Source: Escherichia coli (GTDB taxonomy: Bacteria; Pseudomonadota; Gammaproteobacteria; Enterobacterales; Enterobacteriaceae). From it: a stretch of DNA of 64,000 bases. The stretch lies in the NCBI GenBank assembly GCA_005400705.1, contig GCA_005400705.1_4079.1; one strand, given 5' to 3'. Below, in pieces: positions 11,311 to 63,687 of this stretch. Under the pieces are notes generated by a model. The model was not told where the DNA came from. It worked only from the letters and a program-made list of their open reading frames with translations, and ran no database searches. The position numbers were made by a program, and so were the translations under genes. Within the stretch, counting starts at the first letter, position 1; the number at the start of each line of letters is the position of its first letter.

Positions 11311-11340
11311 AAAACTATTTTAAAAGTATTTGTAGAAAGT

Positions 11341-11402
11341 ACTTGCAAACTAAGTTTAACGGCGTATAATGTTTTACATCGAGAGCGGGAACACTTCCCG
11401 CT
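11341..11402 (+). promoter_or_regulatory. PeSL-type cassette: sigma70-like promoter plus 5' stem-loop
   Basis: aAGTACTTGCAaact, TATAAT at 11365-11370, gttttacatc, hairpin agcgggaa-cac-ttcccgct (11384-11402). Confidence 0.6.
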
Positions 11403-11425
11403 ACATATTACGAGAGATTAAAACG

Positions 11426-11788
11426 ATGGCGACTCAAATCACTAAAATTATTGCTAACCTGGTTAACTTTCGCGACGAGATGAAAGATCTTCCGGCAGAA
11501 ACGGTAAAAATTCACATTTCAGCTTATCGGGAACTTATTGCAATGTTACCGCTTAAGCGTGAACAATACGCCGCGACCGTGATGCTTGATGCGATGATCC
11601 ATAAGATGATCGCCAGTGATTTAACGATGGTTTATCAGTATATGGGCGAAAATTTCGCGGTGTATAGTAAACCAGTACCAGGAATGGAAAGTACAGAAGT
11701 ATTACACGGTTTAAATTTAAAACAAGATGCATGGGATAATATGCCTCGTTTCCTGGTATGGGCTGACAGTGGCAAGATTTACGAATAA
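11426..11788 (+). CDS. Hypothetical protein
   Basis: Track ORF 11369-11788 trimmed to first ATG after the hairpin (11426, MATQITK); 120 aa. Confidence 0.65.
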   Translation: MATQITKIIANLVNFRDEMKDLPAETVKIHISAYRELIAMLPLKREQYAATVMLDAMIHKMIASDLTMVYQYMGENFAVYSKPVPGMESTEVLHGLNLKQDAWDNMPRFLVWADSGKIYE

Positions 11789-11799
11789 GTTTTAGAAAG

Positions 11800-11861
11800 T
11801 ACTTGCAAACTAAGTTTAAAAGCGTATAATGTTTTACATCAGGTGGGGAATAGTTCCCCAC
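11800..11861 (+). promoter_or_regulatory. PeSL-type cassette
   Basis: agtacTTGCAAact, TATAAT 11825-11830, hairpin gtggggaa-tag-ttccccac. Confidence 0.6.
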
Positions 11862-11881
11862 TATATAAGAGGATTAAAAAA

Positions 11882-12121
11882 ATGGCTAAATCAAAAATGT
11901 TCTTAGGTCACAAAAACAAAACTCATTGGAATGTAAGCCTTTGGATTAATAACGATGAGTCATTGTACCGGTTGGCCCAGGACTTTATTAACGATAGCAC
12001 TAATCGCAATGATGCGGCCCGTCATATGATGTTATTTTTAGAACAGACTGGACAAGATAAAACACCGGACGGATTCAAATATAGCACTACTGCGATCCGT
12101 GCGGCGATGGTTGGAATGTAA
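11882..12121 (+). CDS. Hypothetical protein
   Basis: ATG 11882 (MAKSKMF) after SD aagagga; 79 aa. Confidence 0.65.
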   Translation: MAKSKMFLGHKNKTHWNVSLWINNDESLYRLAQDFINDSTNRNDAARHMMLFLEQTGQDKTPDGFKYSTTAIRAAMVGM

Positions 12122-12134
12122 TAGAATATATTTA

Positions 12135-12170
12135 AAGTACTATCGCAAAAAATGATAGTACTTTATAATA
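12135..12170 (+). promoter_or_regulatory. Promoter variant with AGTACT in spacer (degenerate -35)
   Basis: aaagtactatcgcaaaaaatgatAGTACTttataatag; homologous to the promoter at 23762-23796, which has a TTGACA -35. Confidence 0.4.
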
Positions 12171-12206
12171 GTGTTTTATTCATACACAAACGATAAGGGC
12201 AACAGC

Positions 12207-12473
12207 ATGAATATTAAGTATTTTGCGACGCGTGAACAAGCTCGGATCGCCGCACGCCAGGACGGGGCAACGTTTAAAGATATGGGCGTACAATCGGAAC
12301 GTGGTAAACGTTGGGCCATTATAAAGCGTAGTACCGCCAGATCATTACAGTACTGGTTAGCGGCGTTAAAAAGTCCTGATAGTGTATCGCGTCGAGTGGT
12401 AGAAATAAAGCTCGACCGAAAGGGCAACCGCGTGACCGTGTACCGTACTAAAAAGATAGCAGTACTTGAATAA
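12207..12473 (+). CDS. Hypothetical protein; paralog of 23839-24234
   Basis: ATG 12207 (MNIKYFATREQARIAARQDGATFKDMG...DRKGNRVTVYRTKK) matches KFYATREAARIVAREEGAAFKDMG...DRKGNSVTVFSKRR. Confidence 0.65.
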   Translation: MNIKYFATREQARIAARQDGATFKDMGVQSERGKRWAIIKRSTARSLQYWLAALKSPDSVSRRVVEIKLDRKGNRVTVYRTKKIAVLE

Positions 12474-12540
12474 AAGTACTTGCATACTATGTTTAAAGGC
12501 GTATAATGTTTTACATCGAGAGCGGGAACACTTCCCGCCT
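12472..12540 (+). promoter_or_regulatory. PeSL-type cassette
   Basis: aaagtacTTGCATact, TATAAT 12502-12507, hairpin gcgggaa-cac-ttcccgc. Confidence 0.6.
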
Positions 12541-12559
12541 ATAACCTGGAGTAATAAAA

Positions 12560-12790
12560 ATGACTAATATGTATATGACTGAAGTTAAAACTGTAAAAGA
12601 TACTACCACGAATAAAACTACTTACTTACAGCGGATCTGTGGTGTCTGGCAACGTATCAGCAAAATAAAGTACTATAAATTGACATCACATGCTAACCGT
12701 TCGGATTCATTCAGTACTGAAATAAAAGGTAATAAAGTACACCAATACGGCACTTATTATTATTATAGCCTGGATGCGATTGCAGTATAA
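12560..12790 (+). CDS. Hypothetical Thr/Tyr-rich protein
   Basis: 76 aa ORF after PeSL and SD ggag. Confidence 0.6.
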   Translation: MTNMYMTEVKTVKDTTTNKTTYLQRICGVWQRISKIKYYKLTSHANRSDSFSTEIKGNKVHQYGTYYYYSLDAIAV

Positions 12791-13034
12791 GCAGTTTACA
12801 AATCTTTACAATTGCCGGTATTGACTTATTTTGTCAGTACTGGCATAATGTATTCATTGGCAGATAAGCCGTAGCCCATAGGGTGCGGGAGTGTATCTAT
12901 AGAAAAAGTAGTTTATTACAGTTACAATTGTGCACCCGGTGGGTTAGCTGTTGTCATGGGGTATATTATACCAGTACTGGATAGTGCTGTCAATACCTTT
13001 TTACTATTCAGTACTGAAAACTATTTTTAAAAAG

Positions 13035-13066
13035 TACTTGCAAACTATGTTTAAAGGCGTATAATG
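13035..13066 (+). promoter_or_regulatory. PeSL-type promoter driving a structured leader
   Basis: aaagtacTTGCAAact, TATAAT 13060-13065. Confidence 0.55.
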
Positions 13067-13070
13067 TTTT

Positions 13071-13150
13071 ACATCAGGACGGGGAACGAAATAAGTAACT
13101 TCCCGTTAAGTAGCCCAGGAGTAAGGCACACGAAAAACTCCCCTGATAAA
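13071..13150 (+). ncRNA. Conserved structured RNA element, copy 1 (candidate cis-regulatory leader or small RNA)
   Basis: caggacggggaacgaaataagtaacttcccgttaagtagcccaggagtaaggcacacgaaaaactcccctg; identical copy at 22916-22990, diverged copy about 16030-16110; two predicted stem-loops. Confidence 0.35.
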
Positions 13151-13155
13151 ATAGT

Positions 13156-13183
13156 TTGACAAATGTTTTTAAAAGCGTATAAT
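13156..13183 (+). promoter_or_regulatory. Second sigma70-like promoter after the structured element
   Basis: TTGACA 13156-13161, 16 nt, TATAAT 13178-13183. Confidence 0.5.
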
Positions 13184-13215
13184 ACTTACATCAACTACTG
13201 AATGAGGGTTACAAA

Positions 13216-13827
13216 ATGAAAACTATCACTACTACTACTTTCGTTATGGCTTTTTCTGAATTGAACGCAGAACAACAAACGTCAGCTATCGAACTGGTTC
13301 GGGATCGGGAACGTTCAAGCGGTGATGATTTCTTTTCTGAGTCAGTGATCGAGTACTATAAAGAAACAGTACTACCAGAATATGGAATTGATGACGCTGA
13401 TTTGCAATTCAGTGGTTTTTGGTCGCAGGGTGACGGTGCATCAATCAGTACTGACCACGTTGACGCTGTGAAGTTTTTACGCAAGATTAAAGCATTAACT
13501 AAGTATCGTTCTATCCGTCACCTGCTGAATGAAGATGATTTGGCGATGAGTGTAAAGCGTTCTCACTCCCACTACTCGCATGAAAACACTGTAAGCGGGT
13601 ACATTGAATCGGGGTACACTGATTTAACCGCAAAACAAGAAACGTTAGTTAATGAGCTTGAGGAACTACTCACTGAAACTATTCGTGAATTATCCCGCAA
13701 GTTGTACCGTGATTTAGAGAATGCATATGAGGATCAATTCACTACTGAAAACATTACGGCACTGATTGAGGGTAACGAATATCAATTCAATGTTATTGAT
13801 GGCGTAGTAGAATCTATCGAATATTAA
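13216..13827 (+). CDS. Hypothetical acidic protein
   Basis: 203 aa ORF; SGFWSQGDGASIS motif; family not recognised. Confidence 0.7.
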   Translation: MKTITTTTFVMAFSELNAEQQTSAIELVRDRERSSGDDFFSESVIEYYKETVLPEYGIDDADLQFSGFWSQGDGASISTDHVDAVKFLRKIKALTKYRSIRHLLNEDDLAMSVKRSHSHYSHENTVSGYIESGYTDLTAKQETLVNELEELLTETIRELSRKLYRDLENAYEDQFTTENITALIEGNEYQFNVIDGVVESIEY

Positions 13828-13844
13828 TTCAGTACTGAATCAAT

Positions 13845-13863
13845 GGCGGGAGTGGTTCCCGCC
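13845..13863 (+). promoter_or_regulatory. 5' stem-loop without adjacent promoter
   Basis: ggcggga-gtgg-ttcccgcc then SD aggag and ATG 13884. Confidence 0.45.
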
Positions 13864-13883
13864 TATAACCAGGAGTAAGCATC

Positions 13884-14117
13884 ATGATCGAACAAATTCA
13901 AACGACCACAAGCCGGAGCGGAACGAAAGTACATTACATCGCTGATACTGATAAAGGTGTACCCTATTGTGCTGTACACGTAAATACTGACGGTGACTAT
14001 TGGTTAACTGTATACGGGCGTTACTCGTTTGCTTTTAGTGCACATTGTAAGATCCTGGAAGTAGTGAAGCCTACCGGTAAGAATATCACGCCGGGAAAAT
14101 GTTTTACTAAGCACTAA
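13884..14117 (+). CDS. Hypothetical protein; paralog of 15039-15275
   Basis: 77 aa; shared GVPYCAVHVNT(D/E)G(D/N)YW(L/F)TVYG...PTGKNIT. Confidence 0.7.
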   Translation: MIEQIQTTTSRSGTKVHYIADTDKGVPYCAVHVNTDGDYWLTVYGRYSFAFSAHCKILEVVKPTGKNITPGKCFTKH

Positions 14118-14118
14118 A

Positions 14119-14185
14119 AAGTACTTGCATACTAAGTTTAAAAGCGTATAATACTTTATATCGAGGCGGGGGAATGGTTCCCGCC
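14119..14185 (+). promoter_or_regulatory. PeSL-type cassette
   Basis: aaagtacTTGCATact, TATAAT 14147-14152, hairpin ggcggggga-atgg-ttcccgcc. Confidence 0.6.
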
Positions 14186-14203
14186 TTTACTGAGGATTAT
14201 CTA

Positions 14204-14491
14204 ATGAGCAAAGTAATTAACTATACAGTACTAAGCAAGTCATTATCTATTAGCCAGTGCACCGATGGTTTTTGGCTGTACGATGAAACGCGTGGCATGA
14301 ATTTAGCTATGCGGGAGAAAACTGCTGAGGCGGCGTATTTACAAGCCCTGGAATACTACCAGGAACGTTTAAAGGAAGTAGAAAACAATTATCAAAATTT
14401 AAAAGAGAAAGTAGATAATTTCGTTTGTCAATTCGTTGACGATGACGAGGAAGACGGGCACTACTGCAACCGTTGCGGATCTTACAATTAA
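14204..14491 (+). CDS. Hypothetical protein with C-terminal Cys pair (HYCNRCGSYN)
   Basis: Track ORF 14174-14491 trimmed to ATG 14204 (MSKVINYTV); 95 aa. Confidence 0.6.
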   Translation: MSKVINYTVLSKSLSISQCTDGFWLYDETRGMNLAMREKTAEAAYLQALEYYQERLKEVENNYQNLKEKVDNFVCQFVDDDEEDGHYCNRCGSYN

Positions 14492-14554
14492 GTACTTGCA
14501 ATTAGTTTTCAGTACTGTATAATGGTTTACATCAAAGGGAGAAATGGTTCTCCC
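14490..14554 (+). promoter_or_regulatory. PeSL-type cassette
   Basis: agtacTTGCAAttagttttcAGTACTgTATAAT, hairpin gggagaa-atgg-ttctccc. Confidence 0.6.
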
Positions 14555-14573
14555 TGGTAATGAGGAAAATAAA

Positions 14574-14795
14574 ATGGCTAATATCACTACTCTTTCCCAA
14601 CTGGAAGCACTGGTTAAATCTATGCGGGAACATGCCGACAAAATCGGCGTACAAGATCCAGCCGTTTGCTTCTGCGACGAATTGAATGATGATACCCTGG
14701 TAATAGCAGAAGTCCAGGACGTTTCTAACTATTCCTCGCGTTACACTGGCGGCGTAGCAAATAAAGGTGACTTCTGTTTATACCTTACAAAATAA
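14574..14795 (+). CDS. Hypothetical protein
   Basis: ATG 14574 (MANITTLSQ) after SD gaggaaa; 73 aa. Confidence 0.65.
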   Translation: MANITTLSQLEALVKSMREHADKIGVQDPAVCFCDELNDDTLVIAEVQDVSNYSSRYTGGVANKGDFCLYLTK

Positions 14796-14796
14796 C

Positions 14797-14830
14797 AACG
14801 CGGGGAGATAATAACTCCCCGTTACTTTTT
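14797..14830 (+). terminator. Rho-independent terminator
   Basis: cggggag-ataataa-ctccccg followed by ttacttttt. Confidence 0.55.
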
Positions 14831-14959
14831 CAGTACTGAATCATTTAATAGACGGATCTCGGCACCCGGTGGGTTAGTGACTGTTTCGTCTTGATGTAGT
14901 AATTATGCCAGTACTGGATGCACTTGTCAACAATTATTTTTCAAATACTTTTTATTAAA

Positions 14960-15018
14960 ATACTTGCAATTAGTTTTTAAACGCGTATAATGTTTTGCAT
15001 AGGGGGAGCGGTTCCCCT
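14960..15018 (+). promoter_or_regulatory. PeSL-type cassette
   Basis: aatacTTGCAAttag, TATAAT 14986-14991, hairpin ggggagcggttcccc. Confidence 0.55.
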
Positions 15019-15038
15019 GGTAACTAAGGAATAATAAA

Positions 15039-15275
15039 ATGCTTGAACAAATCAAATCAACGTCTTCGAATGTAACGGGAACGGTAGCACACTTTACTAG
15101 TGATGAATCGCGGGGCGTTCCCTATTGTGCTGTACATGTAAACACTGAGGGTAACTACTGGTTTACGGTTTACGGTTCATATTCATTTGGACGGCCAGGG
15201 CATCAAAAAATTCTGGATAAAGTACAGCCAACGGGTAAAAATATCACTGCTGAAATGTTTTATAAAAAATCATAA
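15039..15275 (+). CDS. Hypothetical protein; paralog of 13884-14117
   Basis: 78 aa ORF. Confidence 0.7.
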   Translation: MLEQIKSTSSNVTGTVAHFTSDESRGVPYCAVHVNTEGNYWFTVYGSYSFGRPGHQKILDKVQPTGKNITAEMFYKKS

Positions 15276-15340
15276 AGTACTTGCAATTAGTTTTTAGTAC
15301 TGTATAATATTTTACATCGCAAGGGGGAGCGGTTCCCCCT
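15276..15340 (+). promoter_or_regulatory. PeSL-type cassette
   Basis: aagtacTTGCAAttagtttttAGTACTgTATAAT, hairpin gggggagcggttccccc. Confidence 0.6.
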
Positions 15341-15359
15341 GGTAACTAAGGATAATCAA

Positions 15360-15659
15360 ATGAAAATTGCAATCATCGCCCTGGCTTTATCTGTTTCCTC
15401 TTTCGCTGTTAATGCGTCATTAGATGTAAGTAGTGAAAAATTCATTCAGTGCACTGTTGCAATGACCGATGAAAGTACTGGCGAGATTGTTTTAAAGGAT
15501 TTAGAGATCCAGCCCGAAGCATTTAAAAACGGGCCGTTCCATGAAGAAGACGAAAAAGGTAGCACGACAATTTATTACGATGCAAGTACTAAACGCGGTT
15601 CGGTCACTGTTATGGATACTGAGAAAGTAACTCATACTGGCGTTATTAATTGCCGTTGA
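15360..15659 (+). CDS. Small secreted or periplasmic protein (predicted signal peptide)
   Basis: 99 aa; N-terminus MKIAIIALALSVSSFAVNA is signal-peptide-like. Confidence 0.65.
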   Translation: MKIAIIALALSVSSFAVNASLDVSSEKFIQCTVAMTDESTGEIVLKDLEIQPEAFKNGPFHEEDEKGSTTIYYDASTKRGSVTVMDTEKVTHTGVINCR

Positions 15660-15680
15660 TAGATACTACGGGGTAACATC

Positions 15681-15911
15681 ATGACTAAGCGAATTGTTTT
15701 ACTTAACGAAAGCAGTACTACACAACTACTTAACGCCGTGCATTATGATATTGAAACGAGCGTTAATCTTATCAGTACTGTAGTACTGTTGGACACTGGA
15801 AAGGTCGCCAATGATAAAGCGATTGCAGGTATACTAACGGATCTTGAGCCTGGTAGCAGTGCACCAATAACGTTAAATGGTAAAGTGTTTAATATTTTAC
15901 TCACTGATTAA
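15681..15911 (+). CDS. Hypothetical protein
   Basis: 76 aa ORF after short gap, followed by a terminator. Confidence 0.6.
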   Translation: MTKRIVLLNESSTTQLLNAVHYDIETSVNLISTVVLLDTGKVANDKAIAGILTDLEPGSSAPITLNGKVFNILLTD

Positions 15912-15916
15912 GTACA

Positions 15917-15945
15917 TAGCCCACCTGGTGGGCTTTTTTGTTTTT
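15917..15945 (+). terminator. Rho-independent terminator
   Basis: agcccacc-t-ggtgggct then ttttttgtttttg. Confidence 0.6.
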
Positions 15946-15992
15946 GTAGTATCGTAGTACTGAGATACTTTGAAAATAGTTTTAAAAAATAG

Positions 15993-16020
15993 TTGACATT
16001 ACCGCAGAAAAGCGTAGAAT
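15993..16020 (+). promoter_or_regulatory. Sigma70-like promoter
   Basis: TTGACA 15993-15998, 16 nt, TAGAAT 16015-16020. Confidence 0.5.
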
Positions 16021-16029
16021 GTATTACAT

Positions 16030-16110
16030 CAAGACGGGGAGCACTAAGTAGACCGCCAGTAAGTCGAACGAAAAACTGGACACGTCGAGAAAACTTTGAT
16101 ACACTAATAA
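16030..16110 (+). ncRNA. Diverged third copy of the structured leader element
   Basis: agacggggagcactaagtagaccgccagtaagtcgaacgaaaaactggacacg shares gacgggga, agtaag and acgaaaaact with the element at 13071-13150. Confidence 0.25.
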
Positions 16111-16143
16111 ACGTAAACTAAACTTTAATTGAGGATTTATAAA

Positions 16144-16626
16144 ATGGCTAATGTAAAATCATTCATCAAAGCACTGGTAGCAAATGAAACTAACGTCGCG
16201 GCAGAGATCCTGGCTGATCTGGATAACGATACCATGAAAGCGGTACGCAATAATTTTAACATCGCTTATAGTACTGCGAAAGAACTACAAGCAAATAAAG
16301 CGGCAGAAATTGAAGCGGCAAAGGCGGCCCGTGAAGCAGAACTACAAGCAACAATTGAAAGTATCCAGGCGGCAGTAGTTGGATTGGATCTGGAAGTAGT
16401 TACAGAGATGGCACAAAAAGCCCTGGCGGTTAAGTATGGGGAAGATAAGCCGGAATCTAAGCCTAAAAAATGGATTCAAAAACGTGTAGCGGTAGTACTG
16501 GACAACGGGGAAGAATATCTGATTCCGGTGCGTGGTAACTGCATTGCGGTAGTACTGGATGCGATTAACTCCAGTGGTATGACTCGCGAGGAATGGATCG
16601 AAGCTCATCGCAAAGTTGAAGCATAA
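16144..16626 (+). CDS. Hypothetical protein with N-terminal coiled-coil
   Basis: Track ORF trimmed to ATG 16144 (MANVKSF); Ala/Glu-rich heptad-like stretch AAEIEAAKAAREAELQATIESIQAA; C-terminal internal repeat VAVVLDN/IAVVLDA. Confidence 0.65.
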   Translation: MANVKSFIKALVANETNVAAEILADLDNDTMKAVRNNFNIAYSTAKELQANKAAEIEAAKAAREAELQATIESIQAAVVGLDLEVVTEMAQKALAVKYGEDKPESKPKKWIQKRVAVVLDNGEEYLIPVRGNCIAVVLDAINSSGMTREEWIEAHRKVEA

Positions 16627-16645
16627 CAATTAAAGTACTGAATCA

Positions 16646-16678
16646 CTAGCCCACCTTAAACGGTGGGCTTTTTTGTGT
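16646..16678 (+). terminator. Rho-independent terminator
   Basis: agcccacc-ttaaac-ggtgggct then ttttttgtgttt. Confidence 0.65.
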
Positions 16679-16824
16679 TTATCGTTTACCAGGCCACCAG
16701 CACCGCCTAGAAACGATTCTAACGCATTAAACTGATTATCTGATGCATTGCCCTAGCTGGTGGCGTTAAGGCTGTAAGAACGCGATTGAGAGCGTTTAAA
16801 GTATTTTGCAAAAAGTAATAAAAA

Positions 16825-16885
16825 GTACTTGCACGATTAAGAGATTAGCGTATAATGTTTTACATCGAGAGGGGGAAACGGTTCT
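16825..16885 (+). promoter_or_regulatory. PeSL-type cassette (imperfect hairpin)
   Basis: aaaagtacTTGCACgat, TATAAT 16851-16856, GC-rich gggggaaacggttctcc. Confidence 0.5.
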
Positions 16886-16911
16886 CCTTCCAAATCAAAG
16901 GAATTAAAACA

Positions 16912-17139
16912 ATGGCTATCGTAATCACTCGCGTAACTGGTACTACTGGCAATTCTTCTACTGTTGCTGTAATTACTAATAAGAAAGGTGCGGAATTGCA
17001 TTTTGCAATGGATAAATGGGCCGTTAATGAGTTCGGTCAGTGGGCAAGTGTAGCATACATTGAAACCTATCAAGTGCCGTCGATTAGTTTAACTGATTTG
17101 GGCGTTGAGCGTATCCTTTGCCTGGATGAATTAAATTAA
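16912..17139 (+). CDS. Hypothetical protein
   Basis: Track ORF 16855-17139 trimmed to ATG 16912 (MAIVITRV); 75 aa. Confidence 0.65.
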   Translation: MAIVITRVTGTTGNSSTVAVITNKKGAELHFAMDKWAVNEFGQWASVAYIETYQVPSISLTDLGVERILCLDELN

Positions 17140-17142
17140 AAA

Positions 17143-17206
17143 AGTACTTGCAAAGTAAATCAGATAAAGTATAATACATTACATCAAGGGGAGAAATGGT
17201 TCTCCC
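17143..17206 (+). promoter_or_regulatory. PeSL-type cassette
   Basis: aaagtacTTGCAAagt, TATAAT 17170-17175, hairpin gggagaa-atgg-ttctccc. Confidence 0.6.
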
Positions 17207-18469: not shown

Positions 18470-18474
18470 TTAAT

Positions 18475-58145: not shown

Positions 58146-58573
58146 TGACAAGAGATGATTGTTTGTACATATGGGATATAATTGAAACTACACTTTCAAA
58201 TCCAGAAAATTATAAAACACAAAAAAGACAACGACACAAAACATGGATAGATTTGTTCGTTGAGGACATACACGCAGTGACTATTTGGGATTCACCGAGG
58301 ACATCAGCATCTACTCTGTTGGACAATGAATGCATTGATTGTATTAATTCCACTTTTCATCTCCACGGTACTACAATTTTTGGTACATTTCTGGATATTG
58401 AAAGTAAAGATGATATTGATTCACTTGCGTTACAATACCAAGTACTGTATAATACTAAATTAATTTACGATTTAGTACTAGCTTCTTATGTGTATAAATT
58501 AATGATGAAATATAATCATATTTCTGTTTCAGTTTATACTAAGGATATTCTTTCATTAAGAGACAAAACATGA
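58145..58573 (+). CDS. Family C-like protein (degenerate core)
   Basis: 142 aa; SLALQYQVLYN. Confidence 0.5.
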   Translation: MTRDDCLYIWDIIETTLSNPENYKTQKRQRHKTWIDLFVEDIHAVTIWDSPRTSASTLLDNECIDCINSTFHLHGTTIFGTFLDIESKDDIDSLALQYQVLYNTKLIYDLVLASYVYKLMMKYNHISVSVYTKDILSLRDKT

Positions 58574-59079
58574 GTTTATTAAATGCACGCGAATTGGTTG
58601 AGATGTATGAGATTTTGTCTTCATATAAAAATTCTCATGGAGATGTGATTCTCGACAAAAAGTTCCATGTCAGTGTTGAAAATATATCAAATATAGATAT
58701 GATTTCTTTGGTGGAAAGTAATAAGTCAGGTCTTGAACGCGATATCATGCGTTTGATTTATATTCCCAAACCATCATATACTAATGATAGTTCAATTAGT
58801 AATGAGACATTCATGTATAGTCCTGGTACGGATTCTACTATAGTATCGCTGTCCAATAAATCAATGGGTACTTTCCAATTCATCTATACCAGTACTGATA
58901 ACATTGAAGAAATTGAATTTCAAAACAATACATTAAGTCCATGTAGTAGTGTTATAACCTTTATGTCATATCTATGGTCAACTAAAACAAGTGCTGTTGT
59001 ATATAGTTCAAATTATACACAAGATAGTATTGTTGAATCATATAAAGTTCTAAAGGAATACTATGAAAATAACAAATGA
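58570..59079 (+). CDS. Family C protein
   Basis: 169 aa; core EEIEFQNNTLSP. Confidence 0.6.
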   Translation: MSLLNARELVEMYEILSSYKNSHGDVILDKKFHVSVENISNIDMISLVESNKSGLERDIMRLIYIPKPSYTNDSSISNETFMYSPGTDSTIVSLSNKSMGTFQFIYTSTDNIEEIEFQNNTLSPCSSVITFMSYLWSTKTSAVVYSSNYTQDSIVESYKVLKEYYENNK

Positions 59080-59644
59080 TTTTATTAAAAGTGTAGTACA
59101 CCCTATGCTTAGTATTATGAAAAAAATACAGAATCTACCGGAAGATAACGATTACAAGTTTAATCGTTTTGATTCAGATGTGTTTTGTATTGAAATTGAA
59201 ATTAATAACAATCGCAATTTACATTTAAAATTCAAAGAATCGTCAAGTCCGTACTACAACTTTGATATGAATTTTAAAATAGATACTGACATTGAAGAAA
59301 ACGTAATATCAAATCATACTAGCAAAAATGGTTTTATGCATAGAACTACTATGTACAATAATAAAAATAGTATTATATCTAAATGGAATCATCAATTCAC
59401 TAAAATTTGTGAAATTGTATATAGTGATTTTGGTGAAGAGAATTACTTTCAGTTAAGTACAATTCATGAACTTCCACCGTATGATTATGTTAAAACATGG
59501 TTTGATATTCATAATATAATTGATGATGCAATCAAACTTCCATTTGGTGTGTCAATATCATATACTGCTCCTAAAACATTTGTTTTTACTGAAGATATGA
59601 TTATGAAAAAGATATGGGCAATTATCCCACTTATGATGGATTAA
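59063..59644 (+). CDS. Family C protein
   Basis: 193 aa; core EENYFQLSTIHE. Confidence 0.65.
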   Translation: MKITNDFIKSVVHPMLSIMKKIQNLPEDNDYKFNRFDSDVFCIEIEINNNRNLHLKFKESSSPYYNFDMNFKIDTDIEENVISNHTSKNGFMHRTTMYNNKNSIISKWNHQFTKICEIVYSDFGEENYFQLSTIHELPPYDYVKTWFDIHNIIDDAIKLPFGVSISYTAPKTFVFTEDMIMKKIWAIIPLMMD

Positions 59645-59658
59645 ATTCGTACCAGGGG

Positions 59659-59687
59659 TTGACTCTGGTATTTTTGTATGATACATT
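59659..59687 (+). promoter_or_regulatory. Candidate internal promoter
   Basis: TTGACT 59659-59664, 17 nt, TACATT 59682-59687; overlapping inverted repeat accag/ctggt. Confidence 0.3.
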
Positions 59688-59705
59688 GTCCTAAAGGAGA
59701 ATTTT

Positions 59706-60257
59706 ATGAACTACAATCATGATCTTTTTACATTATGTGCATCCAAATGTGTTGATGGATGGACAGATAAAATCAATACCATAATTCATCGATATCTGGT
59801 CTTTAGTTCTCGTGCACGAAGTGAGGGGGCTATGGATTTCAAATATACACTATCTATTGATGGTGTAACTATCCATGCAGACGAAGAACGTCTGAGCATT
59901 AATTTGTATGATTCCTGTGTATTTGCTATTCACCAAAAGATGGGGAAAGGATGGGGTTGTAATAACATTAACTCAAAAGCTATCTTTTGGGTTGGTCACC
60001 ACCAGACAGTACTTGATCCTTCAATCAAATCTAATCTTTTATCCGATAATATGGTTTATGATTTATTGTACTCCGAAGAACAACATTTTCAGTTAAGTAC
60101 ATTACATGATCTGGCACAGTACGAGGATTGTTACAAAACATTAGAACTATGCCATTCCCTTGAACTTAAAGATAAATTGATACAAGTTTACCCTTCATTC
60201 TTTCATGAAGAAGTACAAAGTACACTAGATCATATTTTATATGGATACGATAAATGA
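59706..60257 (+). CDS. Family C protein
   Basis: 183 aa; core EEQHFQLSTLHD. Confidence 0.65.
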   Translation: MNYNHDLFTLCASKCVDGWTDKINTIIHRYLVFSSRARSEGAMDFKYTLSIDGVTIHADEERLSINLYDSCVFAIHQKMGKGWGCNNINSKAIFWVGHHQTVLDPSIKSNLLSDNMVYDLLYSEEQHFQLSTLHDLAQYEDCYKTLELCHSLELKDKLIQVYPSFFHEEVQSTLDHILYGYDK

Positions 60258-60856
60258 GAAAAAGTTATCAAGAAGCTATTGACTTAATTCGTGAAGTTAT
60301 CAAGGTGGCTCCTGCTGCTATTGAGTTCAAGAAGTCCATATACAAGAAGTATGGTTCAATGTCGAGTATGTGCTTTCAAAAGAAACGTAGAGCATTCACT
60401 ACCCAGTACTGGAATGATTCTATCATCCTGAGCAATGAGACTCAGCGTATTTTAACACTAGAATCTGAACCTAATGAGTACGGGGAAGGGAACATTTGTG
60501 TACCTGATTATGATGAAATTAACTTCAACTGCGGTGATTTTGAAACAACATTATTACTTCATGAGGGTTATCCAGAAGGTGATGTATTAGCTGAGTACAA
60601 TCCAAAAACTAAAATTCTCAAAAGAGGAATCCAGTTCACTATTAATAACAAAGATGATGTTCAAGCAGCACTGATGCAACTGAGTACAAGTGAACCTATC
60701 ACTATTAGTGTAGAAGAGTTATGGGGAATTATTTCAGTACTCAATGAGTGCTATAAAGTAAAATCATTGCGTAAACACAGCATTATATTACATACCAATA
60801 TGGCAAATATAAAATGTAAGCACATTCAAGAAATGGTGGTTCCAGATGGACTTTAA
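60254..60856 (+). CDS. Family C-like protein
   Basis: 200 aa; core QAALMQLSTSEP. Confidence 0.55.
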   Translation: MRKSYQEAIDLIREVIKVAPAAIEFKKSIYKKYGSMSSMCFQKKRRAFTTQYWNDSIILSNETQRILTLESEPNEYGEGNICVPDYDEINFNCGDFETTLLLHEGYPEGDVLAEYNPKTKILKRGIQFTINNKDDVQAALMQLSTSEPITISVEELWGIISVLNECYKVKSLRKHSIILHTNMANIKCKHIQEMVVPDGL

Positions 60857-61430
60857 AGAAATTGAAAGTAAATTAAAGTACTTCAAAGATATCAAACTTC
60901 TTTGGGAAAAGTATAAAGTTGATTACAATTTCAGTGATGATGACACTGTAAAAACAATTGAGATTAATATCAAAATCAAGTTCAAGAATAATAATTATGG
61001 TGAAGTAACCTTAAATCATACTGGTATATCACTCAAGGACTATGATGGTTCAACACTCGCATATTTTGACTTCACACCAGAACCAGGTGAAACACTACTT
61101 AGTGAGATAAATTCCTATGACATGGAAGTGTTCGGCGGGAATCCGTTACTGTTCCGACTTTCTGAAGATTGGAGTGAAGAATACTACACTTACAAAGATG
61201 GTGTAGTACTTGACATTAATGGTGAAGTTGTGAATGACTTGGAAGAACGCTTGTTCCAAGAATTGTGTGTTTCAAATACTTCATATGCATACAATCATAT
61301 CCTTGACATGTTTGATTTATATAGTAAAATAGATGCTGAAATGAATGCACATGGTATTCATTATCTTACAATCAACGACTATGCTCAACTTGAAACTGTA
61401 GTGAAAGCATTGACTAAAGTACTGAAATAG
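60846..61430 (+). CDS. Family C protein
   Basis: 194 aa; core EERLFQELCVSN. Confidence 0.6.
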   Translation: MDFKEIESKLKYFKDIKLLWEKYKVDYNFSDDDTVKTIEINIKIKFKNNNYGEVTLNHTGISLKDYDGSTLAYFDFTPEPGETLLSEINSYDMEVFGGNPLLFRLSEDWSEEYYTYKDGVVLDINGEVVNDLEERLFQELCVSNTSYAYNHILDMFDLYSKIDAEMNAHGIHYLTINDYAQLETVVKALTKVLK

Positions 61431-61439
61431 GAATGAAAT

Positions 61440-61853
61440 ATGAAACTGTATCATGCGAGTACTGTAAAAATTGATAACTTTTATATCCCGTATGGTGGTC
61501 TTCATATGGGAGGTAAACACAGTGCTTTGGAAGCTGCATTACGCAAGCTCAGAAGTCCACTGAACGTAGTAGACGCATGTACAGTATACTTGCATACCTT
61601 AGAAGTTGATGTTGATAACGTGCTTCTGTGTGAAGATTTAGGCAGTGATGATGAGTGGCGTTCACTTATTGAGAATTGCACTGCTCAAGGTTATGATGCT
61701 GTTCAGTACAAAAATGATTACGAGCCAGACAATGTTCCTAGTTTTATGATTTGGGATGCATCTAAAGTTCGCATCATTGAAGTTGATGCTATGCATATGG
61801 ATGAAGCTGAAATGATTATCGAAGATTTTCTTGATGAATATGAAGGTGTATAA
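61440..61853 (+). CDS. Hypothetical protein
   Basis: 137 aa ORF without family core. Confidence 0.5.
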   Translation: MKLYHASTVKIDNFYIPYGGLHMGGKHSALEAALRKLRSPLNVVDACTVYLHTLEVDVDNVLLCEDLGSDDEWRSLIENCTAQGYDAVQYKNDYEPDNVPSFMIWDASKVRIIEVDAMHMDEAEMIIEDFLDEYEGV

Positions 61854-62371
61854 TGATTGAACCTATGACAGTACTAGCACGTACTAAATTATTATTGAGG
61901 ATTGGTGAGATATTCACTGATATTTTGTACAGTGGGATTGATATACTTGAATTAGGCATTAAGCAACCGTGGGAATTAACCAAGTTCTCTGCGTTCCATC
62001 GTTTATCCTATAAAGGGGAAACGGTTCTTGACTTGAACCCCAAAGCCAGATTCATGGACTATGCAGCTTTATATGGAACATGTGGAGGAATAACAAATGA
62101 TTTCAAAGAAATTAAAGTTCAAACAGCGTCACATGAATTTAATGATTTATTATATCCAGAATTTAAGTTAACAGAAGAATCATTCTTCCAGTACTCATTG
62201 ATTTTAAAAGATCTTAATGATTTAGAGTACTACAAAGAGTTAGTAGATATTTTTATTAATACACGACTTTCAAAAGATATTGTGATATTCTGGTATACAG
62301 AGCATGTTACGGAGGAATTGCTTACTGAATTTCTTCTAAATATGACAGCTATAAAGGAGAAGTTATGTTAG
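61853..62371 (+). CDS. Family C protein
   Basis: 172 aa; core EESFFQYSLILKD. Confidence 0.65.
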   Translation: MIEPMTVLARTKLLLRIGEIFTDILYSGIDILELGIKQPWELTKFSAFHRLSYKGETVLDLNPKARFMDYAALYGTCGGITNDFKEIKVQTASHEFNDLLYPEFKLTEESFFQYSLILKDLNDLEYYKELVDIFINTRLSKDIVIFWYTEHVTEELLTEFLLNMTAIKEKLC

Positions 62372-62838
62372 ATATTTTAGGAAACATCGACACTGCAAAT
62401 TATTTTATTCAAGATGCATTGTTTAATACAGTACAACAAGGTTTAGAAGTTCACCACAATGTTTATCAGGGTGATGGATATTTTGTTGATATTATCGAGA
62501 CACGTAAAAATACATTTAATGTTAACATTACGACGCTTGGAAGACAGAACATTGCACGAATTTTAGTAAGTAAAGATGAAATAGTACTGAGATACAGTGC
62601 TAAGTTTATGTTGACTTATAAGAAAAAAACTGATATGTTCAGTACTAATTTATTTGATGAGCCATTTGACCTTGAAGATATTGAAGCTACTTTCTTTACT
62701 CAAAGTACTATGGTAAAATACACTGATGTTCAATTTTCTGCTGATGTAATGTCAGAAACATTACAAATGATCAAGGTATTATTTTATGCATTTGAGCAAT
62801 TTAGAGAAGAAAGAAACAAGGTTAACAACCACAGATGA
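62365..62838 (+). CDS. Family C-like protein
   Basis: 157 aa; core EATFFTQSTMVKY. Confidence 0.55.
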   Translation: MLDILGNIDTANYFIQDALFNTVQQGLEVHHNVYQGDGYFVDIIETRKNTFNVNITTLGRQNIARILVSKDEIVLRYSAKFMLTYKKKTDMFSTNLFDEPFDLEDIEATFFTQSTMVKYTDVQFSADVMSETLQMIKVLFYAFEQFREERNKVNNHR

Positions 62839-63199
62839 ACTAATAGAGGCGATCACTAAGGAGTCAAAATACCATAAAGGTATTCGTCTATACTTTATAG
62901 ATACTGGTTCGATGGAAGGTACATACATTTATGGTTCACAATCGTTGTCTTATGATGCAATGCCAAATAAACATGTTAAAATCTTTTTAGGTTCAAGTAA
63001 TAAAACTTTCTTGACAATTAATGATAGCAGTGTTATTATGAATTCGTTGGGTCATGATAAGGTGGAAATTGATCTAAACACGCTGGAGGATATTGATTTT
63101 TTTCAATACGAGTGTTTAGGTGTTGACTTACATGGCATTAGTAGCGATATGATAAAATCATTAATCAAATATTTCGAAGGTGTTCATAAATGTATCTAA
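62786..63199 (+). CDS. Family C-like protein (start uncertain)
   Basis: 137 aa; core DIDFFQYECLGVD; 52 nt overlap with previous ORF. Confidence 0.5.
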   Translation: MHLSNLEKKETRLTTTDELIEAITKESKYHKGIRLYFIDTGSMEGTYIYGSQSLSYDAMPNKHVKIFLGSSNKTFLTINDSSVIMNSLGHDKVEIDLNTLEDIDFFQYECLGVDLHGISSDMIKSLIKYFEGVHKCI

Positions 63200-63687
63200 C
63201 TAAATCAATGAAAAATTCATTTGATAAAATCAAGAGTTGTCTTGATGGAGAAAATATTACAAGTGTTACACAAACTGCTGACCAAATTCAAAGCAGTTCA
63301 AGTGATTGCACTGTTATTTTTGGTTTACATAGTCTGCGTTTATCAATAGTAAATAATATTGACAACACTGCTATTGTAATCACACCATGCAATATTCAAA
63401 ATGAGAATGGTGTATATCTTCATCACATGGGAACAGTATTTCACATTTTCAATTCAAACGAAAACATTGTTAAGGAATACAATACTCTTAATATTGATTC
63501 AGGTGAATTATTTCAAATGAGTACTTTGTACTCATGTAATTTTACAGATACTTCATGTATTTTGCCATTTTTCTTGGAAATTATTAAGAAAATGGAAAAT
63601 TTAAAACGTGAATACAATAAAGAAATGGTTCCTGAAGCTATATTAAATATTACTAATGCTATAGAGAAGTATAATGCAGTGACTTAA
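63190..63687 (+). CDS. Family C protein
   Basis: 165 aa; core GELFQMSTLYS. Confidence 0.65.
   Translation: MYLTKSMKNSFDKIKSCLDGENITSVTQTADQIQSSSSDCTVIFGLHSLRLSIVNNIDNTAIVITPCNIQNENGVYLHHMGTVFHIFNSNENIVKEYNTLNIDSGELFQMSTLYSCNFTDTSCILPFFLEIIKKMENLKREYNKEMVPEAILNITNAIEKYNAVT

What the first reader, a model, noticed from the sequence alone, without database searches (positions are those of the whole stretch)
11340..63687. Compositional split between the promoter-cassette block and the tandem arrays
By eye the genes in 11.3-29.5 kb are noticeably more GC-rich with enterobacteria-like codons (for example atggcgactcaaatcactaaaattattgctaacctggtt) than the very AT-rich family B and C arrays. This suggests different ages or origins for the two accessory blocks.
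Basis: seen in the sequence. Interest (0 to 1): 0.35.

Follow-up and report, generated by a model that had tools for sequence, protein, structure and literature searches.

The report
GC step marks phage terminal repeat
The GC-rich block is real and matches the roughly 20-kb terminal repeat of a jumbo E. coli phage, a strip of small early genes with host-type promoters that are shared with unrelated coliphages, while the AT-rich gene arrays next to it occur only in this phage lineage.

Summary
GC is 0.387 in window 9,690-29,684, against 0.345 upstream and 0.322 downstream. It is higher at all three codon positions (family-level p about 1e-10).

The window comes from an Asteriusvirus jumbo coliphage (relatives 121Q, PBECO4, fEgEco12). 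The GC-rich block maps base for base onto the 20,993-bp direct terminal repeat (DTR) of fEgEco12, whose ends were confirmed experimentally. The best-fit GC change point (29,694) lies 10 bp from the mapped DTR end.

In 121Q the same two stretches are the most GC-rich 20 kb and the most AT-rich 34 kb of the whole genome.

The DTR holds about 51 small genes. About 22 of them sit behind one conserved cassette: A-rich upstream element, sigma-70-type promoter, 8-9-bp G/C hairpin in the leader, ribosome-binding site. The same cassette, and at least 19 of the genes, occur in unrelated coliphages of about 145 kb (local GC 0.395). None of the 91 array genes does.

DTR codon usage matches those foreign cassette genes (r 0.88) and is closer to E. 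coli (0.61, against -0.11 to 0.12 for the arrays).

"Different origins" is supported. "Different ages" is not: polarised substitutions place each block near its own GC equilibrium (0.39 against 0.32-0.34). The finding is useful and incremental.

The parts
9690..29684 (+). Homologue of the direct terminal repeat (DTR) of Asteriusvirus jumbo phages, present here as one collapsed copy. This is the GC-rich block (GC 0.387).
   Evidence: Position 1 of fEgEco12 aligns to window 9,690. The right-end copy aligns across its inner boundary (353,741) and stops at window 29,682, two bases short of the record end. The two fEgEco12 copies (20,993 bp) are identical, and its termini were confirmed by restriction digests (PMC13070987). 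GC change points fall at 10,264 and 29,694.
9690..11340 (.). ORF-poor left end of the DTR. It contains a terminal inverted repeat (9,694-9,710), many CAGTACTG palindromes, an 8-nt tandem-repeat array (10,435-10,594) and a first promoter at 10,055.
   Evidence: Sequence read. Repeat family D10. Hairpin and promoter. No long ORF.
11329..28855 (+). Twenty-two copies of one regulatory cassette. Each has an A-rich upstream element (AAAAAGTAC), TTGCAA or TTGACA, a 16-nt spacer, (TG)TATAAT, GTTTTACAT, an 8-9-bp G/C hairpin at about +5 to +28 of the predicted transcript, a Shine-Dalgarno sequence, and an ATG about 45-49 nt from the predicted start. The -35 hexamers start at 11343, 11803, 12480, 14125, 14496, 14964, 15281, 16829, 17148, 18675, 18904, 19496, 19931, 22045, 22343, 23337, 25878, 26374, 26925, 27261, 27901 and 28770.
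   Evidence: Repeat families D1-D9. Alignment A2 with three A5-4 copies. Hairpins of -11 to -16 kcal/mol. Compensatory pairs. Promoter-like sites number 93 against 65.7+-8.8 in shuffles, and terminator-like sites 28 against 13.5+-3.4.
11426..29531 (+). About 51 small genes (mean 86 aa), all on the + strand, mostly one gene per promoter, nearly all of unknown function. Mean GC is 0.395. Recognisable ones: 21091-21348 DksA/TraR zinc finger, 21413-21769 GNAT acetyltransferase, 25158-25742 weak protein-kinase match.
   Evidence: Gene calls and start refinement. Pfam. PHROGs, all of unknown function. Median intergenic gap is 78 nt, against -4 to -11 nt in the arrays.
17451..17795 (+). Mosaic gene. 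The promoter flank and the last ~40 nt of the gene are almost identical to fEgEco12, but the body of the gene is about 80% identical to the allele in the unrelated phages SF1-1 and A5-4 and only 35% (protein) to the fEgEco12/121Q allele.
   Evidence: Four-way alignment A1. tblastn results.
29723..29750 (+). Sigma-70-like promoter (TTGACT, 16-nt spacer, TAAAAT) just inside the unique region, ahead of the first array.
   Evidence: (family D3, last row).
29751..38007 (+). Array 1: 36 tightly packed genes with overlapping stops and starts. Thirty-one genes of the window, all but two of them in this array, belong to one ~75-aa paralogue family. GC is 0.326.
   Evidence: All-against-all blastp. Composition. 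Same layout in 121Q and fEgEco12.
38016..63687 (+). Array 2: about 55 genes of 100-200 aa in long operons, including paralogue families of 10 and 9 members. GC is 0.320. Terminator and/or promoter-like sites break the operons at about 40,201-40,267, 52,490, 56,344-56,405 and 59,649.
   Evidence: No Pfam match. Small PHROG families of unknown function. 98% covered at 95% identity in 121Q.
516..9416 (.). Context: the unique DNA that lies just before the right-hand DTR copy in a packaged genome. It holds four RCC1-like paralogues on the - strand (516-5,332) and small + strand paralogues (5,430-9,416). GC is 0.345.

Best explanation
The GC step marks the edge of the phage's long direct terminal repeat.

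Shown:
- The window comes from an Asteriusvirus jumbo coliphage assembled with the two repeat copies collapsed into one, at 9,690-29,684.
- This repeat is packed with small genes. About 22 sit behind one conserved cassette of host-type (sigma-70) promoter, 5' leader hairpin and ribosome-binding site; others sit behind further promoter-like sites.
- The cassette and many of the genes also occur in unrelated coliphages of about 145 kb. There they have the same GC (about 0.395) and the same codon preferences, although that genome is at 0.41 and this one at 0.34.
- The neighbouring arrays are lineage-specific paralogue operons. Their proteins are poor in Gly, Ala, Arg and Pro, and their codons include ones rare in E. 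coli (AGA, ATA, GGA).
- Each block sits near its own GC equilibrium.

Inferred:
- The repeat is the immediate-early, host-takeover region. It is probably the first DNA to enter the cell and is read by unmodified host RNA polymerase, as in the T5 pre-early region and the SPO1 host-takeover module.
- The shared cassettes act as portable homology, so that genes are swapped by recombination during mixed infections, as described for PeSLs in T4-type phages.
- The higher GC is held in place by continuing exchange with that gene pool, by selection for translation with host tRNAs before phage tRNAs are made, or by both.
- The leader hairpin most likely stabilises the mRNA 5' end. It is probably not a terminator, because no T-run follows it.
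For: Identity of the phage.

DTR mapping: fEgEco12 position 1 aligns to window 9,690. The right-end copy runs through its inner boundary and stops at 29,682. The two copies are identical. The termini were shown experimentally (PMC13070987). Records E9.1 and CRJP21, at about 367 kb (about 347 kb plus 20 kb), start at the same point. The GC change point at 29,694 is 10 bp from the mapped end. The fEgEco12 DTR has GC 0.385 against 0.327 in the next 9 kb.

Genome context: the DTR equivalent is the GC maximum of 121Q and the arrays are its minimum.

Cassettes.

Cross-family sharing:
- The same cassette occurs in A5-4 and SF1-1, with gene matches at 66-89% nucleotide identity.
- 26 of 28 whole-genome blastn matches between 121Q and A5-4 fall in 121Q 137,071-155,134.
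- 19 of 51 DTR genes against 0 of 91 array genes have relatives there (Fisher p = 3e-10).
- The DTR protein at 11,882-12,121 is found in 237 records of many phage types and is 95% identical to one in a ~150-kb phage. An array protein is found in only 36 jumbo-phage records.
- The gene at 17,451-17,795 is a mosaic.
- Breaks in the alignment to fEgEco12 fall at cassettes.

Composition: codon-preference (RSCU) correlation is 0.88 with A5-4 cassette genes and 0.61 with E. coli, against -0.11 to 0.12 for the arrays. 121Q core GC3 is 0.208, against 0.375 in the DTR. The A5-4 cassette region is at 0.3955 in a genome of 0.412.

Equilibrium GC: 0.393 in the DTR against 0.323 and 0.335 in the arrays.

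Generality: the distant relative CBB has a 22.5-kb DTR with the same promoter type and GC 0.378, against 0.350 in the DNA next to it.
Against: - Terminal redundancy of this particular phage is inferred from homology. No reads or read depth are available.
- Early timing, promoter activity and hairpin function are untested. No transcriptome for an Asteriusvirus was found.
- DTR genes with and without a detected foreign relative have the same GC (0.396 against 0.394). Horizontal origin is therefore demonstrated for only about 40% of the genes, and the shared composition could come from location or expression instead.
- The arrays also start with sigma-70-like promoters. A simple early-versus-late split therefore does not separate the blocks.
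- The confidence intervals of the two equilibrium GC values touch (0.352-0.436 against 0.304-0.365). Some 'substitutions' may be recombination patches.
- Only one complete foreign genome (A5-4) and one 14-kb fragment (SF1-1) were compared in detail.
Confidence: 0.72

Rival explanations
1. One reading: the block is a recent import from a GC-richer donor that has not yet decayed to the phage's AT-rich composition, and the arrays are old residents.
For: The composition is atypical for the genome. Foreign relatives exist at 66-89% nucleotide identity in phages with 39-41% GC (PMC6563267).
Against: Polarised changes in 17,088 three-way aligned sites are balanced (S>W 249, W>S 260). Equilibrium GC is 0.393, against 0.384 now, and at third codon positions it is 0.410. 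The block, with the same composition, is present in all relatives examined: 121Q at 0.382, fEgEco12 at 0.385, and more weakly in CBB. It is therefore old in the lineage.
Confidence: 0.1
2. Selection alone. Immediate-early genes must be translated with the host's tRNA pool before phage tRNAs appear, so they keep host-like, GC-richer codons. No horizontal origin is needed.
For: DTR genes avoid AGA, ATA and GGA and use CTG, CGT, ATC and CCG, unlike the arrays. The 121Q tRNAs (Gly-TCC, Thr-TGT, Ser-TGA, annotated Leu-TAA, and a CAT tRNA) read codons enriched in the arrays: GGA, ACA and, slightly, TTA; TCA was not tabulated. Third-position GC is at equilibrium. Shared and unshared DTR genes have the same GC.
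Against: It does not explain the 7-8-point difference at codon positions 1 and 2. GC3 of 0.375 is far from E. coli at 0.49-0.56. Horizontal exchange is directly visible. The arrays also carry sigma-70-like promoters. It is most plausible as a contributor.
Confidence: 0.2
3. A local mutational or repair bias. The terminal repeat recombines in every cycle, and GC-biased repair of heteroduplex DNA raises its GC.
For: The step coincides with the DTR edge to within 10 bp. The CBB DTR is also 2.7 points above the adjacent DNA. Equilibrium GC of non-coding DTR sites is 0.364, with a wide interval.
Against: The same genes and cassettes have the same GC (0.3955) in A5-4, where the region is internal and slightly below that genome's mean of 0.412. 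phAPEC8-like phages have only short terminal repeats (328 bp in Schickermooser; PMC6563267). The excess is larger in coding than in intergenic DNA.
Confidence: 0.08
4. Artefact: the contrast comes from GC-rich hairpins, intergenic DNA, gene length, or non-independence of paralogues.
For: The hairpins are G/C-rich. The arrays contain large paralogue families.
Against: Coding GC (0.395) exceeds intergenic GC (0.352) in the block. The family-collapsed test still gives p = 1e-10. The same step is seen in 121Q and fEgEco12.
Confidence: 0.01

Closest known systems
PeSLs (promoter-early stem-loops) of T4-type phages (Arbiol et al. 2010, PMC2839356; Comeau et al. 2014, PMC4122927)
   Same: A repeated composite motif made of an A/T-rich upstream stretch, a consensus sigma-70 promoter, a G-run/C-run stem-loop, and a Shine-Dalgarno sequence with start codon. 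It flanks small genes of unknown function in a variable region. Differences between close relatives are whole-gene insertions, deletions and replacements bounded by the motif.
   Different: Here the stem-loop always lies downstream of the -10 box, inside the predicted transcript (about +5 to +28), and no T-run follows it. In phi1/RB49 it mostly lies between or over the -35 and -10 boxes and acts as a terminator. The host phage is a Rak2-like jumbo phage and not a T4-type phage. The cassettes fill a terminal repeat. The same cassette is shared with a different phage family. That last point was not found in the papers searched.
SPO1 host-takeover module in the 13.2-kb terminal redundancy (PMC10531801)
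   Same: A long terminal redundancy filled almost entirely with a cluster of small genes of unknown or host-shutoff function. Those genes have strong early promoters and ribosome-binding sites (the promoters and binding sites are from my own knowledge; the location and the 24 genes are).
   Different: It has a different host (Bacillus) and a different phage family, and there is no sequence relationship. No compositional step or cross-family cassette sharing is known to me for SPO1.
T5 pre-early (first-step-transfer) region in the ~10-kb terminal repeat (bioRxiv 10.1101/866236; PMC7472727)
   Same: The terminal repeat carries the genes expressed first, by host sigma-70 RNA polymerase (abstracts). 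The left end of the repeat contains an untranslated stretch with repeats.
   Different: Two-step injection is a T5 speciality and was not tested here. T5 has few pre-early genes and no gene-by-gene cassette.
Published terminal repeats of Rak2-like jumbo phages: fEgEco12 20,993 bp, Sharanji 20,668 bp, CBB 22,456 bp (PMC13070987, PMC11895373, PMC5259590)
   Same: It is the same structure. The window's block is the orthologue of the fEgEco12 repeat. The CBB authors noted RpoD-like promoters with UP elements, three of them in its repeat.
   Different: In the passages retrieved by keyword search, none of these papers mentions the GC step, the leader hairpins, the codon-usage difference or the sharing with ~145-kb coliphages. 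Only those passages were read, not the full texts.

Membership tests
Long direct terminal repeat carrying immediate-early or host-takeover genes (T5, SPO1, Rak2-like phages) | The same sequence is present at both physical ends of the packaged genome | tested here: inconclusive
   Met in the orthologous genome fEgEco12: the copies are identical and the ends were confirmed by digests. Both boundaries map precisely onto the window at 9,690 and 29,684. For this phage itself no reads are available, so it rests on homology.
Long direct terminal repeat carrying immediate-early or host-takeover genes (T5, SPO1, Rak2-like phages) | A dense set of strong host-type promoters in front of small genes, all in one direction | tested here: met
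   There are 35 + strand sites matching at least 10 of 12 consensus positions, 8 of them perfect. The overall count is 93 against 65.7+-8.8 in shuffles. The arrays are not above their shuffles. All 51 genes are on the + strand.
Long direct terminal repeat carrying immediate-early or host-takeover genes (T5, SPO1, Rak2-like phages) | The genes are expressed first after infection and act on the host | not testable with these tools
   No transcriptome was found. The only hints are a DksA/TraR zinc finger, a GNAT acetyltransferase and a weak kinase match.
PeSL regulatory cassettes | Sigma-70 consensus promoter with an A/T-rich upstream region | tested here: met
   The consensus is AAAAAGTAC-TTGCAA/TTGACA-16 nt-TATAAT in 22 aligned copies.
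PeSL regulatory cassettes | An adjacent G-run/C-run stem-loop that acts as terminator or attenuator for upstream transcription | tested here: inconclusive
   The stem-loop is present (8-9 bp, -11 to -16 kcal/mol, compensatory changes). It lies in the leader after the predicted start and has no T-run. Terminator function is therefore doubtful and was not tested.
PeSL regulatory cassettes | The cassettes flank genes of unknown function in a variable region and bound the insertions and replacements seen between close relatives | tested here: met
   Alignment blocks to fEgEco12 break at cassettes, for example at 13,829/14,490, 17,435/17,770, 22,036/22,060 and 25,899/25,967. The gene at 17,451-17,795 is a mosaic.
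PeSL regulatory cassettes | The host genome is a T4-type phage | tested here: not met
   The genome is an Asteriusvirus (Rak2-like). It has only distant T4-like core genes. It works like a PeSL system but should not be filed as one of the described PeSL sets.
PeSL regulatory cassettes | Recombination between cassettes gives excised mini-circles | not testable with these tools
   This needs PCR or reads from infected cells or virions.
Horizontally exchanged gene block recognised by composition | GC and codon usage are atypical for the resident genome and similar to those of the foreign relatives | tested here: met
   Block GC3 is 0.375 against 0.208 in core genes. Codon-preference (RSCU) correlation is 0.88 with A5-4 cassette genes. 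The block is the genome-wide GC maximum.
Horizontally exchanged gene block recognised by composition | Composition is decaying toward that of the resident genome (amelioration) | tested here: not met
   Equilibrium GC is 0.393 [0.352-0.436], against 0.384 now.

The most novel reading that the evidence does not exclude
The terminal repeat of Asteriusvirus jumbo phages is a compositionally self-maintaining exchange zone for immediate-early genes. One portable promoter-hairpin cassette, shared with unrelated ~137-152-kb coliphages (phAPEC8-like and rV5-like), supplies the homology for gene-by-gene recombination during co-infection. This would extend the PeSL mechanism across phage families and would keep the block at its own GC equilibrium (about 0.39) inside a 0.34 genome.
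Probability: 0.45. Interest if true: 0.55.

Novelty: new variant of a known kind. Interest (0 to 1): 0.4.

Why it matters
- **Locating the repeat.** The GC step gives a read-free way to place the terminal-repeat boundary in collapsed assemblies of these jumbo phages. Here it lands within 10 bp. Many deposited Asteriusvirus genomes have no determined ends.
- **Finding takeover genes.** It picks out about 50 small genes as the likely first-expressed, host-takeover set of a phage group in which more than 80% of genes have no known function. That is a sensible place to look for inhibitors of host processes and for anti-defence proteins.
- **Gene flow between phage families.** Early-gene cassettes move between jumbo phages and mid-sized coliphages that share a host. 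This matters for phage taxonomy, for the safety and stability of therapeutic cocktails that mix such phages, and for understanding how accessory gene pools are structured.
- **Reading atypical composition.** The balanced substitution spectrum is a caution against treating atypical GC as evidence of a recent import.

Tried and rejected
- **tRNA genes.** I looked for tRNA genes in the window as a local cause of the codon differences. There are none.
- **Known RNA families.** An Rfam scan of 9-31 kb at E <= 0.1 for the hairpins and the second repeated element found nothing.
- **Function of the array proteins.** Pfam gave no significant match for 10 array proteins. PHROGs gave only families of unknown function for both blocks. 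Function could not be used to explain composition.
- **Foreign genes as the GC-rich ones.** I tested whether DTR genes with a detected foreign relative are the GC-rich ones. They are not (0.396 against 0.394, p = 0.84). The simple reading that only the imported genes are GC-rich is rejected.
- **Start codons in the hairpin loop.** In about 7 cassettes the longest ORF starts at an ATG inside the hairpin loop. That frequency (about 27%) is what chance in-frame placement would give. All 22 cassettes have a proper Shine-Dalgarno sequence plus ATG about 45-49 nt from the predicted start, so I moved the starts there.
- **'Hyperplastic region' overstated.** The low coverage (35-52%) at first suggested very high gene turnover. 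That figure is only the best joined 'place'. Protein-level comparison shows nearly all DTR genes are present in both relatives: all but one in fEgEco12 and all but five in 121Q. Turnover is real but modest between close relatives.
- **Literature.** Searches for a prior report of the CAGTACTG motif, or of promoter-hairpin cassettes in rV5/phAPEC8-like or Asteriusvirus phages, found nothing.

Full report
**1. The observation**

A sliding profile and direct counts confirm the split. GC is 0.388 for 11,340-29,500 and 0.320 for 38,000-64,000. Likelihood segmentation cuts the window into 1-10,090 (0.344), 10,091-32,130 (0.384) and 32,131-64,000 (0.320). Refined change points are 10,264 and 29,694.

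I called genes and corrected their starts. Gene-level composition is:

| Region | Genes | Mean GC | GC1 / GC2 / GC3 |
|---|---|---|---|
| GC-rich block | 51 | 0.395 | 0.474 / 0.344 / 0.367 |
| 29.7-38 kb | 36 | 0.326 | 0.396 / 0.263 / 0.318 |
| 38-63.7 kb | 55 | 0.320 | 0.399 / 0.272 / 0.288 |

The arrays consist largely of paralogues, with families of 31, 10 and 9 members. I therefore collapsed genes into families. The result, 48 against 38 families, still gives p = 1e-10.

The excess lies in coding DNA (0.395) and not in the intergenic cassettes (0.352). The G/C hairpins are therefore not the cause.

**2. What the window is**

All parts of the window match Asteriusvirus jumbo coliphages such as 121Q, PBECO4, phAPEC6 and fEgEco12. 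The arrays are 98% covered at 95% identity in 121Q and match only 36 records, all Escherichia or Salmonella jumbo phages. The GC-rich block matches 200 records, including many phages of about 137-152 kb from other groups.

I rebuilt the complete 121Q genome from eight fetched pieces. Its GC is 0.341. The 20-kb window with the highest GC in all 348 kb is 135,501-155,500 (0.382, z = +3.0), which is the equivalent of the block. The 34-kb window with the lowest GC is 159,001-193,000 (0.320), which is the arrays.

**3. The block is the direct terminal repeat**

The fEgEco12 paper reports a 20,993-bp direct terminal repeat found with PhageTerm and confirmed by restriction digests (PMC13070987). Sharanji has a repeat of 20,668 bp and CBB one of 22,456 bp.

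The mapping onto the window is precise:
- Position 1 of fEgEco12 aligns to window 9,690.
- The right-hand copy aligns without interruption from the unique DNA across its inner boundary (353,741) and stops at window 29,682, two bases before the end of the record.
- The two copies are identical.
- The left-hand copy continues past its inner boundary into the arrays.

The window therefore reads: right-end unique DNA (1-9,689), one collapsed repeat copy (9,690-29,684), then left-end unique DNA. The independent GC change point at 29,694 is 10 bp from the mapped boundary.

In fEgEco12 the repeat has GC 0.385 and the next 9 kb 0.327. Two further records of about 367 kb (E9.1 and CRJP21) start at the same base. 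For this particular phage the redundancy is inferred from homology, because no reads are available.

**4. Anatomy of the block**

After an ORF-poor 1.65 kb come about 51 small + strand genes. The median gap between them is 78 nt, against overlapping stops and starts in the arrays.

Twenty-two gaps hold one cassette:
- an A-rich upstream element (AAAAAGTAC);
- TTGCAA or TTGACA, a 16-nt spacer, and (TG)TATAAT;
- GTTTTACAT;
- an 8-9-bp G/C hairpin;
- a Shine-Dalgarno sequence and an ATG.

If transcription starts about 7 nt after the -10 box, the hairpin occupies about +5 to +28 of a 45-49-nt leader. The hairpins fold at -11 to -16 kcal/mol in the same place in every copy. Their stems differ between copies by compensatory changes. 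No T-run follows. I therefore read the hairpin as a 5'-end stabiliser and not a terminator; this is an inference.

Promoter-like sites number 93 against 65.7 +/- 8.8 in shuffles. Terminator-like sites number 28 against 13.5 +/- 3.4. In the arrays neither count exceeds its shuffles, and only a handful of terminator/promoter pairs divide long operons.

Recognisable products are few: a DksA/TraR zinc finger, a GNAT acetyltransferase and a weak kinase match. Nothing in the arrays matches Pfam. PHROGs gives only families of unknown function for both blocks.

**5. Shared with unrelated phages**

Two phages of about 145 kb carry the same cassette in front of small genes with the same spacing. These are A5-4 (filed under Vequintavirinae) and SF1-1. 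Many of their genes match block genes at 66-89% nucleotide identity.

- A whole-genome blastn of 121Q against A5-4 gives 28 matches. Of these, 26 lie in 121Q 137,071-155,134 and A5-4 77,190-89,341. The other two are a tRNA and nrdD.
- At protein level, 19 of 51 block genes have a relative in A5-4 or in the 14-kb SF1-1 fragment. None of the 91 array genes does (Fisher p = 3e-10).
- The block protein at 11,882-12,121 occurs in 237 phage records of many kinds and is 95% identical to one in a ~150-kb phage. An array protein occurs in 36 jumbo-phage records only.
- The gene at 17,451-17,795 is a clear mosaic. Its promoter flank and last ~40 nt are nearly identical to fEgEco12. Its body is about 80% identical to the SF1-1/A5-4 allele and only 35% (protein) to the fEgEco12 allele.
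- Breaks in the alignment to fEgEco12 fall at cassettes.

This is the pattern described for PeSLs in T4-type phages (PMC2839356).

**6. Why the composition differs**

The contrast has two separate components.

*Third codon positions.* Core genes of 121Q are extremely AT-rich (GC3 0.208). The arrays are at 0.29-0.32 and the block at 0.375. Block codon preferences (RSCU) correlate with other gene sets as follows:

| Compared with | Correlation with block genes |
|---|---|
| A5-4 cassette genes | 0.88 |
| 121Q core genes | 0.73 |
| E. coli genes (ordinary set) | 0.61 |
| Arrays | 0.42-0.59 |

The arrays correlate with E. coli at only -0.27 to +0.12. Block genes use CTG, CGT, ATC and CCG and avoid AGA, ATA and GGA. 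The arrays do the opposite.

*First and second codon positions.* Here the block resembles core proteins (Gly+Ala+Arg+Pro 20%) and the arrays are the odd ones (12-13%).

*Comparison with A5-4.* The A5-4 cassette region has GC 0.3955 in a genome of 0.412. phAPEC8-like phages average 39% (PMC6563267). The cassette genes therefore have the same composition in a 0.34 genome and in a 0.41 genome. This fits a common pool or a common selective regime. It does not fit a bias peculiar to the terminal repeat.

**7. Age**

I polarised substitutions in three-way alignments of the window, fEgEco12 and 121Q.

| Region | Aligned sites | S>W | W>S | Equilibrium GC | GC now |
|---|---|---|---|---|---|
| Block | 17,088 | 249 | 260 | 0.393 [0.352-0.436] | 0.384 |
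| Arrays 29.7-38 kb | 4,518 | 148 | 141 | 0.323 [0.274-0.376] | 0.335 |
| Arrays 38-64 kb | 23,032 | 405 | 427 | 0.335 [0.304-0.365] | 0.319 |

Third positions alone give 0.410 for the block against 0.294 and 0.335 for the arrays.

The block is therefore not sliding toward the genome mean, and the difference is being maintained. This removes the support for 'younger import'.

It leaves open what does the maintaining: continuing exchange with the pool, selection for host-like codons in the first-expressed genes, or both. The 121Q tRNAs read GGA, ACA and TTA, which are enriched in the arrays, and TCA, which I did not tabulate. A repair bias in the repeat is a weaker third option.

Caveats: the intervals touch, the method is parsimony on three taxa, and some differences may be recombination patches.

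**8. Generality**

The distant relative CBB (Mimasvirus, host Pectobacterium) has the same layout. Minus-strand structural paralogues are followed by a 22.5-kb repeat, which begins with an ORF-poor stretch and continues with small + strand genes behind AAAGTACTTGCA...AGTACTnTATAAT promoters. Its repeat has GC 0.378 against 0.350 in the preceding 26 kb. Most of its leaders lack the hairpin.

**9. Comparison with what is known**

Long terminal repeats that carry first-expressed, host-takeover genes are classic in SPO1 and T5. The repeat itself is published for Asteriusvirus. PeSLs are published for T4-type phages.

Four points were not found in the papers searched:
- the coincidence of the genome's sharpest GC step with the repeat boundary;
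- the leader position of the hairpin;
- the sharing of one cassette and many genes between jumbo and mid-sized coliphage families;
- the separate GC equilibria.

I file the feature as a new variant of a known kind. It is of moderate interest.

Noticed in passing
whole window; densest in 9,690-29,684: The palindrome CAGTACTG occurs 71 times against 0.85 expected. AGTACT occurs 278 times against about 21. Density is 2.05 per kb in the terminal repeat, 1.3 per kb upstream and 0.5 per kb in the arrays. Thirty-two copies lie in the 16% of the window that is non-coding, typically as TTCAGTACTGAA. The motif is also hugely enriched in 121Q (194 and 903 copies) and in CBB (35 and 221 in 48 kb). It is depleted in A5-4 (0 and 9 copies, against 1.9 and 46 expected). 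It forms part of the promoter cassette. Its function is unknown and no literature hit was found.
   Followed up: partly
window 10,435-10,594: A tandem array of about 20 imperfect 8-nt units (GGATGGCT / AGACGGCT / AAACGGCT) sits in the ORF-poor left end of the terminal repeat. It could be a set of protein-binding sites, for example for replication, packaging or an injection stop.
   Followed up: no
window 10,779-28,267, ten copies on both strands (e.g. 19,331-19,464; 22,717-22,836; 25,718-25,846; 28,163-28,291; minus strand at 12,932, 14,862, 10,779): A second repeated element. In the four long + strand copies (19,331; 22,717; 25,718; 28,163) a promoter has its -35 box inside a 12-bp hairpin (AAAGGGATTGACTCCGGTCAGTCCCTTT, then TATTAT), and about 20 nt downstream lies the conserved box CCCAYNGGGTGC(A)TAARTGTATC. 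The box occurs 10 times against 0.31 expected, all inside the repeat. No ORF follows directly and there is no Rfam match. It may be a small RNA or an operator.
   Followed up: partly
window ~9,000-10,500: GC skew changes sign, from about -0.2 to +0.1, close to the mapped physical terminus at 9,690. Yet the genes at 5.4-9.4 kb are already on the + strand. The skew is therefore not explained by transcription direction alone.
   Followed up: no
window 516-5,332 (- strand): Four tandem RCC1-like paralogues (375-390 aa) abut the repeat. They belong to a larger array of such genes in 121Q (genes 234-248 carry this annotation). CBB has kelch-like and structural paralogues in the same position.
   Followed up: no
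window 11,369; 14,174; 17,196; 22,093; 25,927; 28,789 and the matching genes in fEgEco12 (e.g. g01 at 1,689): Longest-ORF starts fall inside the -10 box (TATAATG) or the hairpin loop (GGAGAAATGA). The deposited annotation of fEgEco12 has the start in the -10 box for at least its first gene (g01). The real starts are most likely the ATGs preceded by a Shine-Dalgarno sequence, 30-60 nt further on.
   Followed up: partly
window 5,868-9,416: A seven-member family of ~60-aa paralogues lies in the unique DNA just before the repeat. Its GC is 0.33 and it has the most AT-skewed amino-acid composition in the window (Phe+Tyr+Met+Ile+Asn+Lys 42%).
   Followed up: no
window 40,201-40,267; 52,490-52,519; 56,344-56,405; 59,649-59,671: There are a few intrinsic-terminator-like and sigma-70-like sites inside the arrays: a terminator plus promoter at about 40.2 kb and at about 56.4 kb, a promoter alone at 52,490 and a terminator alone at 59,649. 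They suggest that the arrays are about five long operons, also read by host-type RNA polymerase.
   Followed up: no
one search hit list: Several ~146-151-kb records labelled as Campylobacter, Pseudomonas or Klebsiella phages (for example Campylobacter phage C3 and Pseudomonas phage PsgM04F) share 86-91% identical pieces of the block with coliphages. Either these phages have very broad host ranges or their host labels are doubtful.
   Followed up: no
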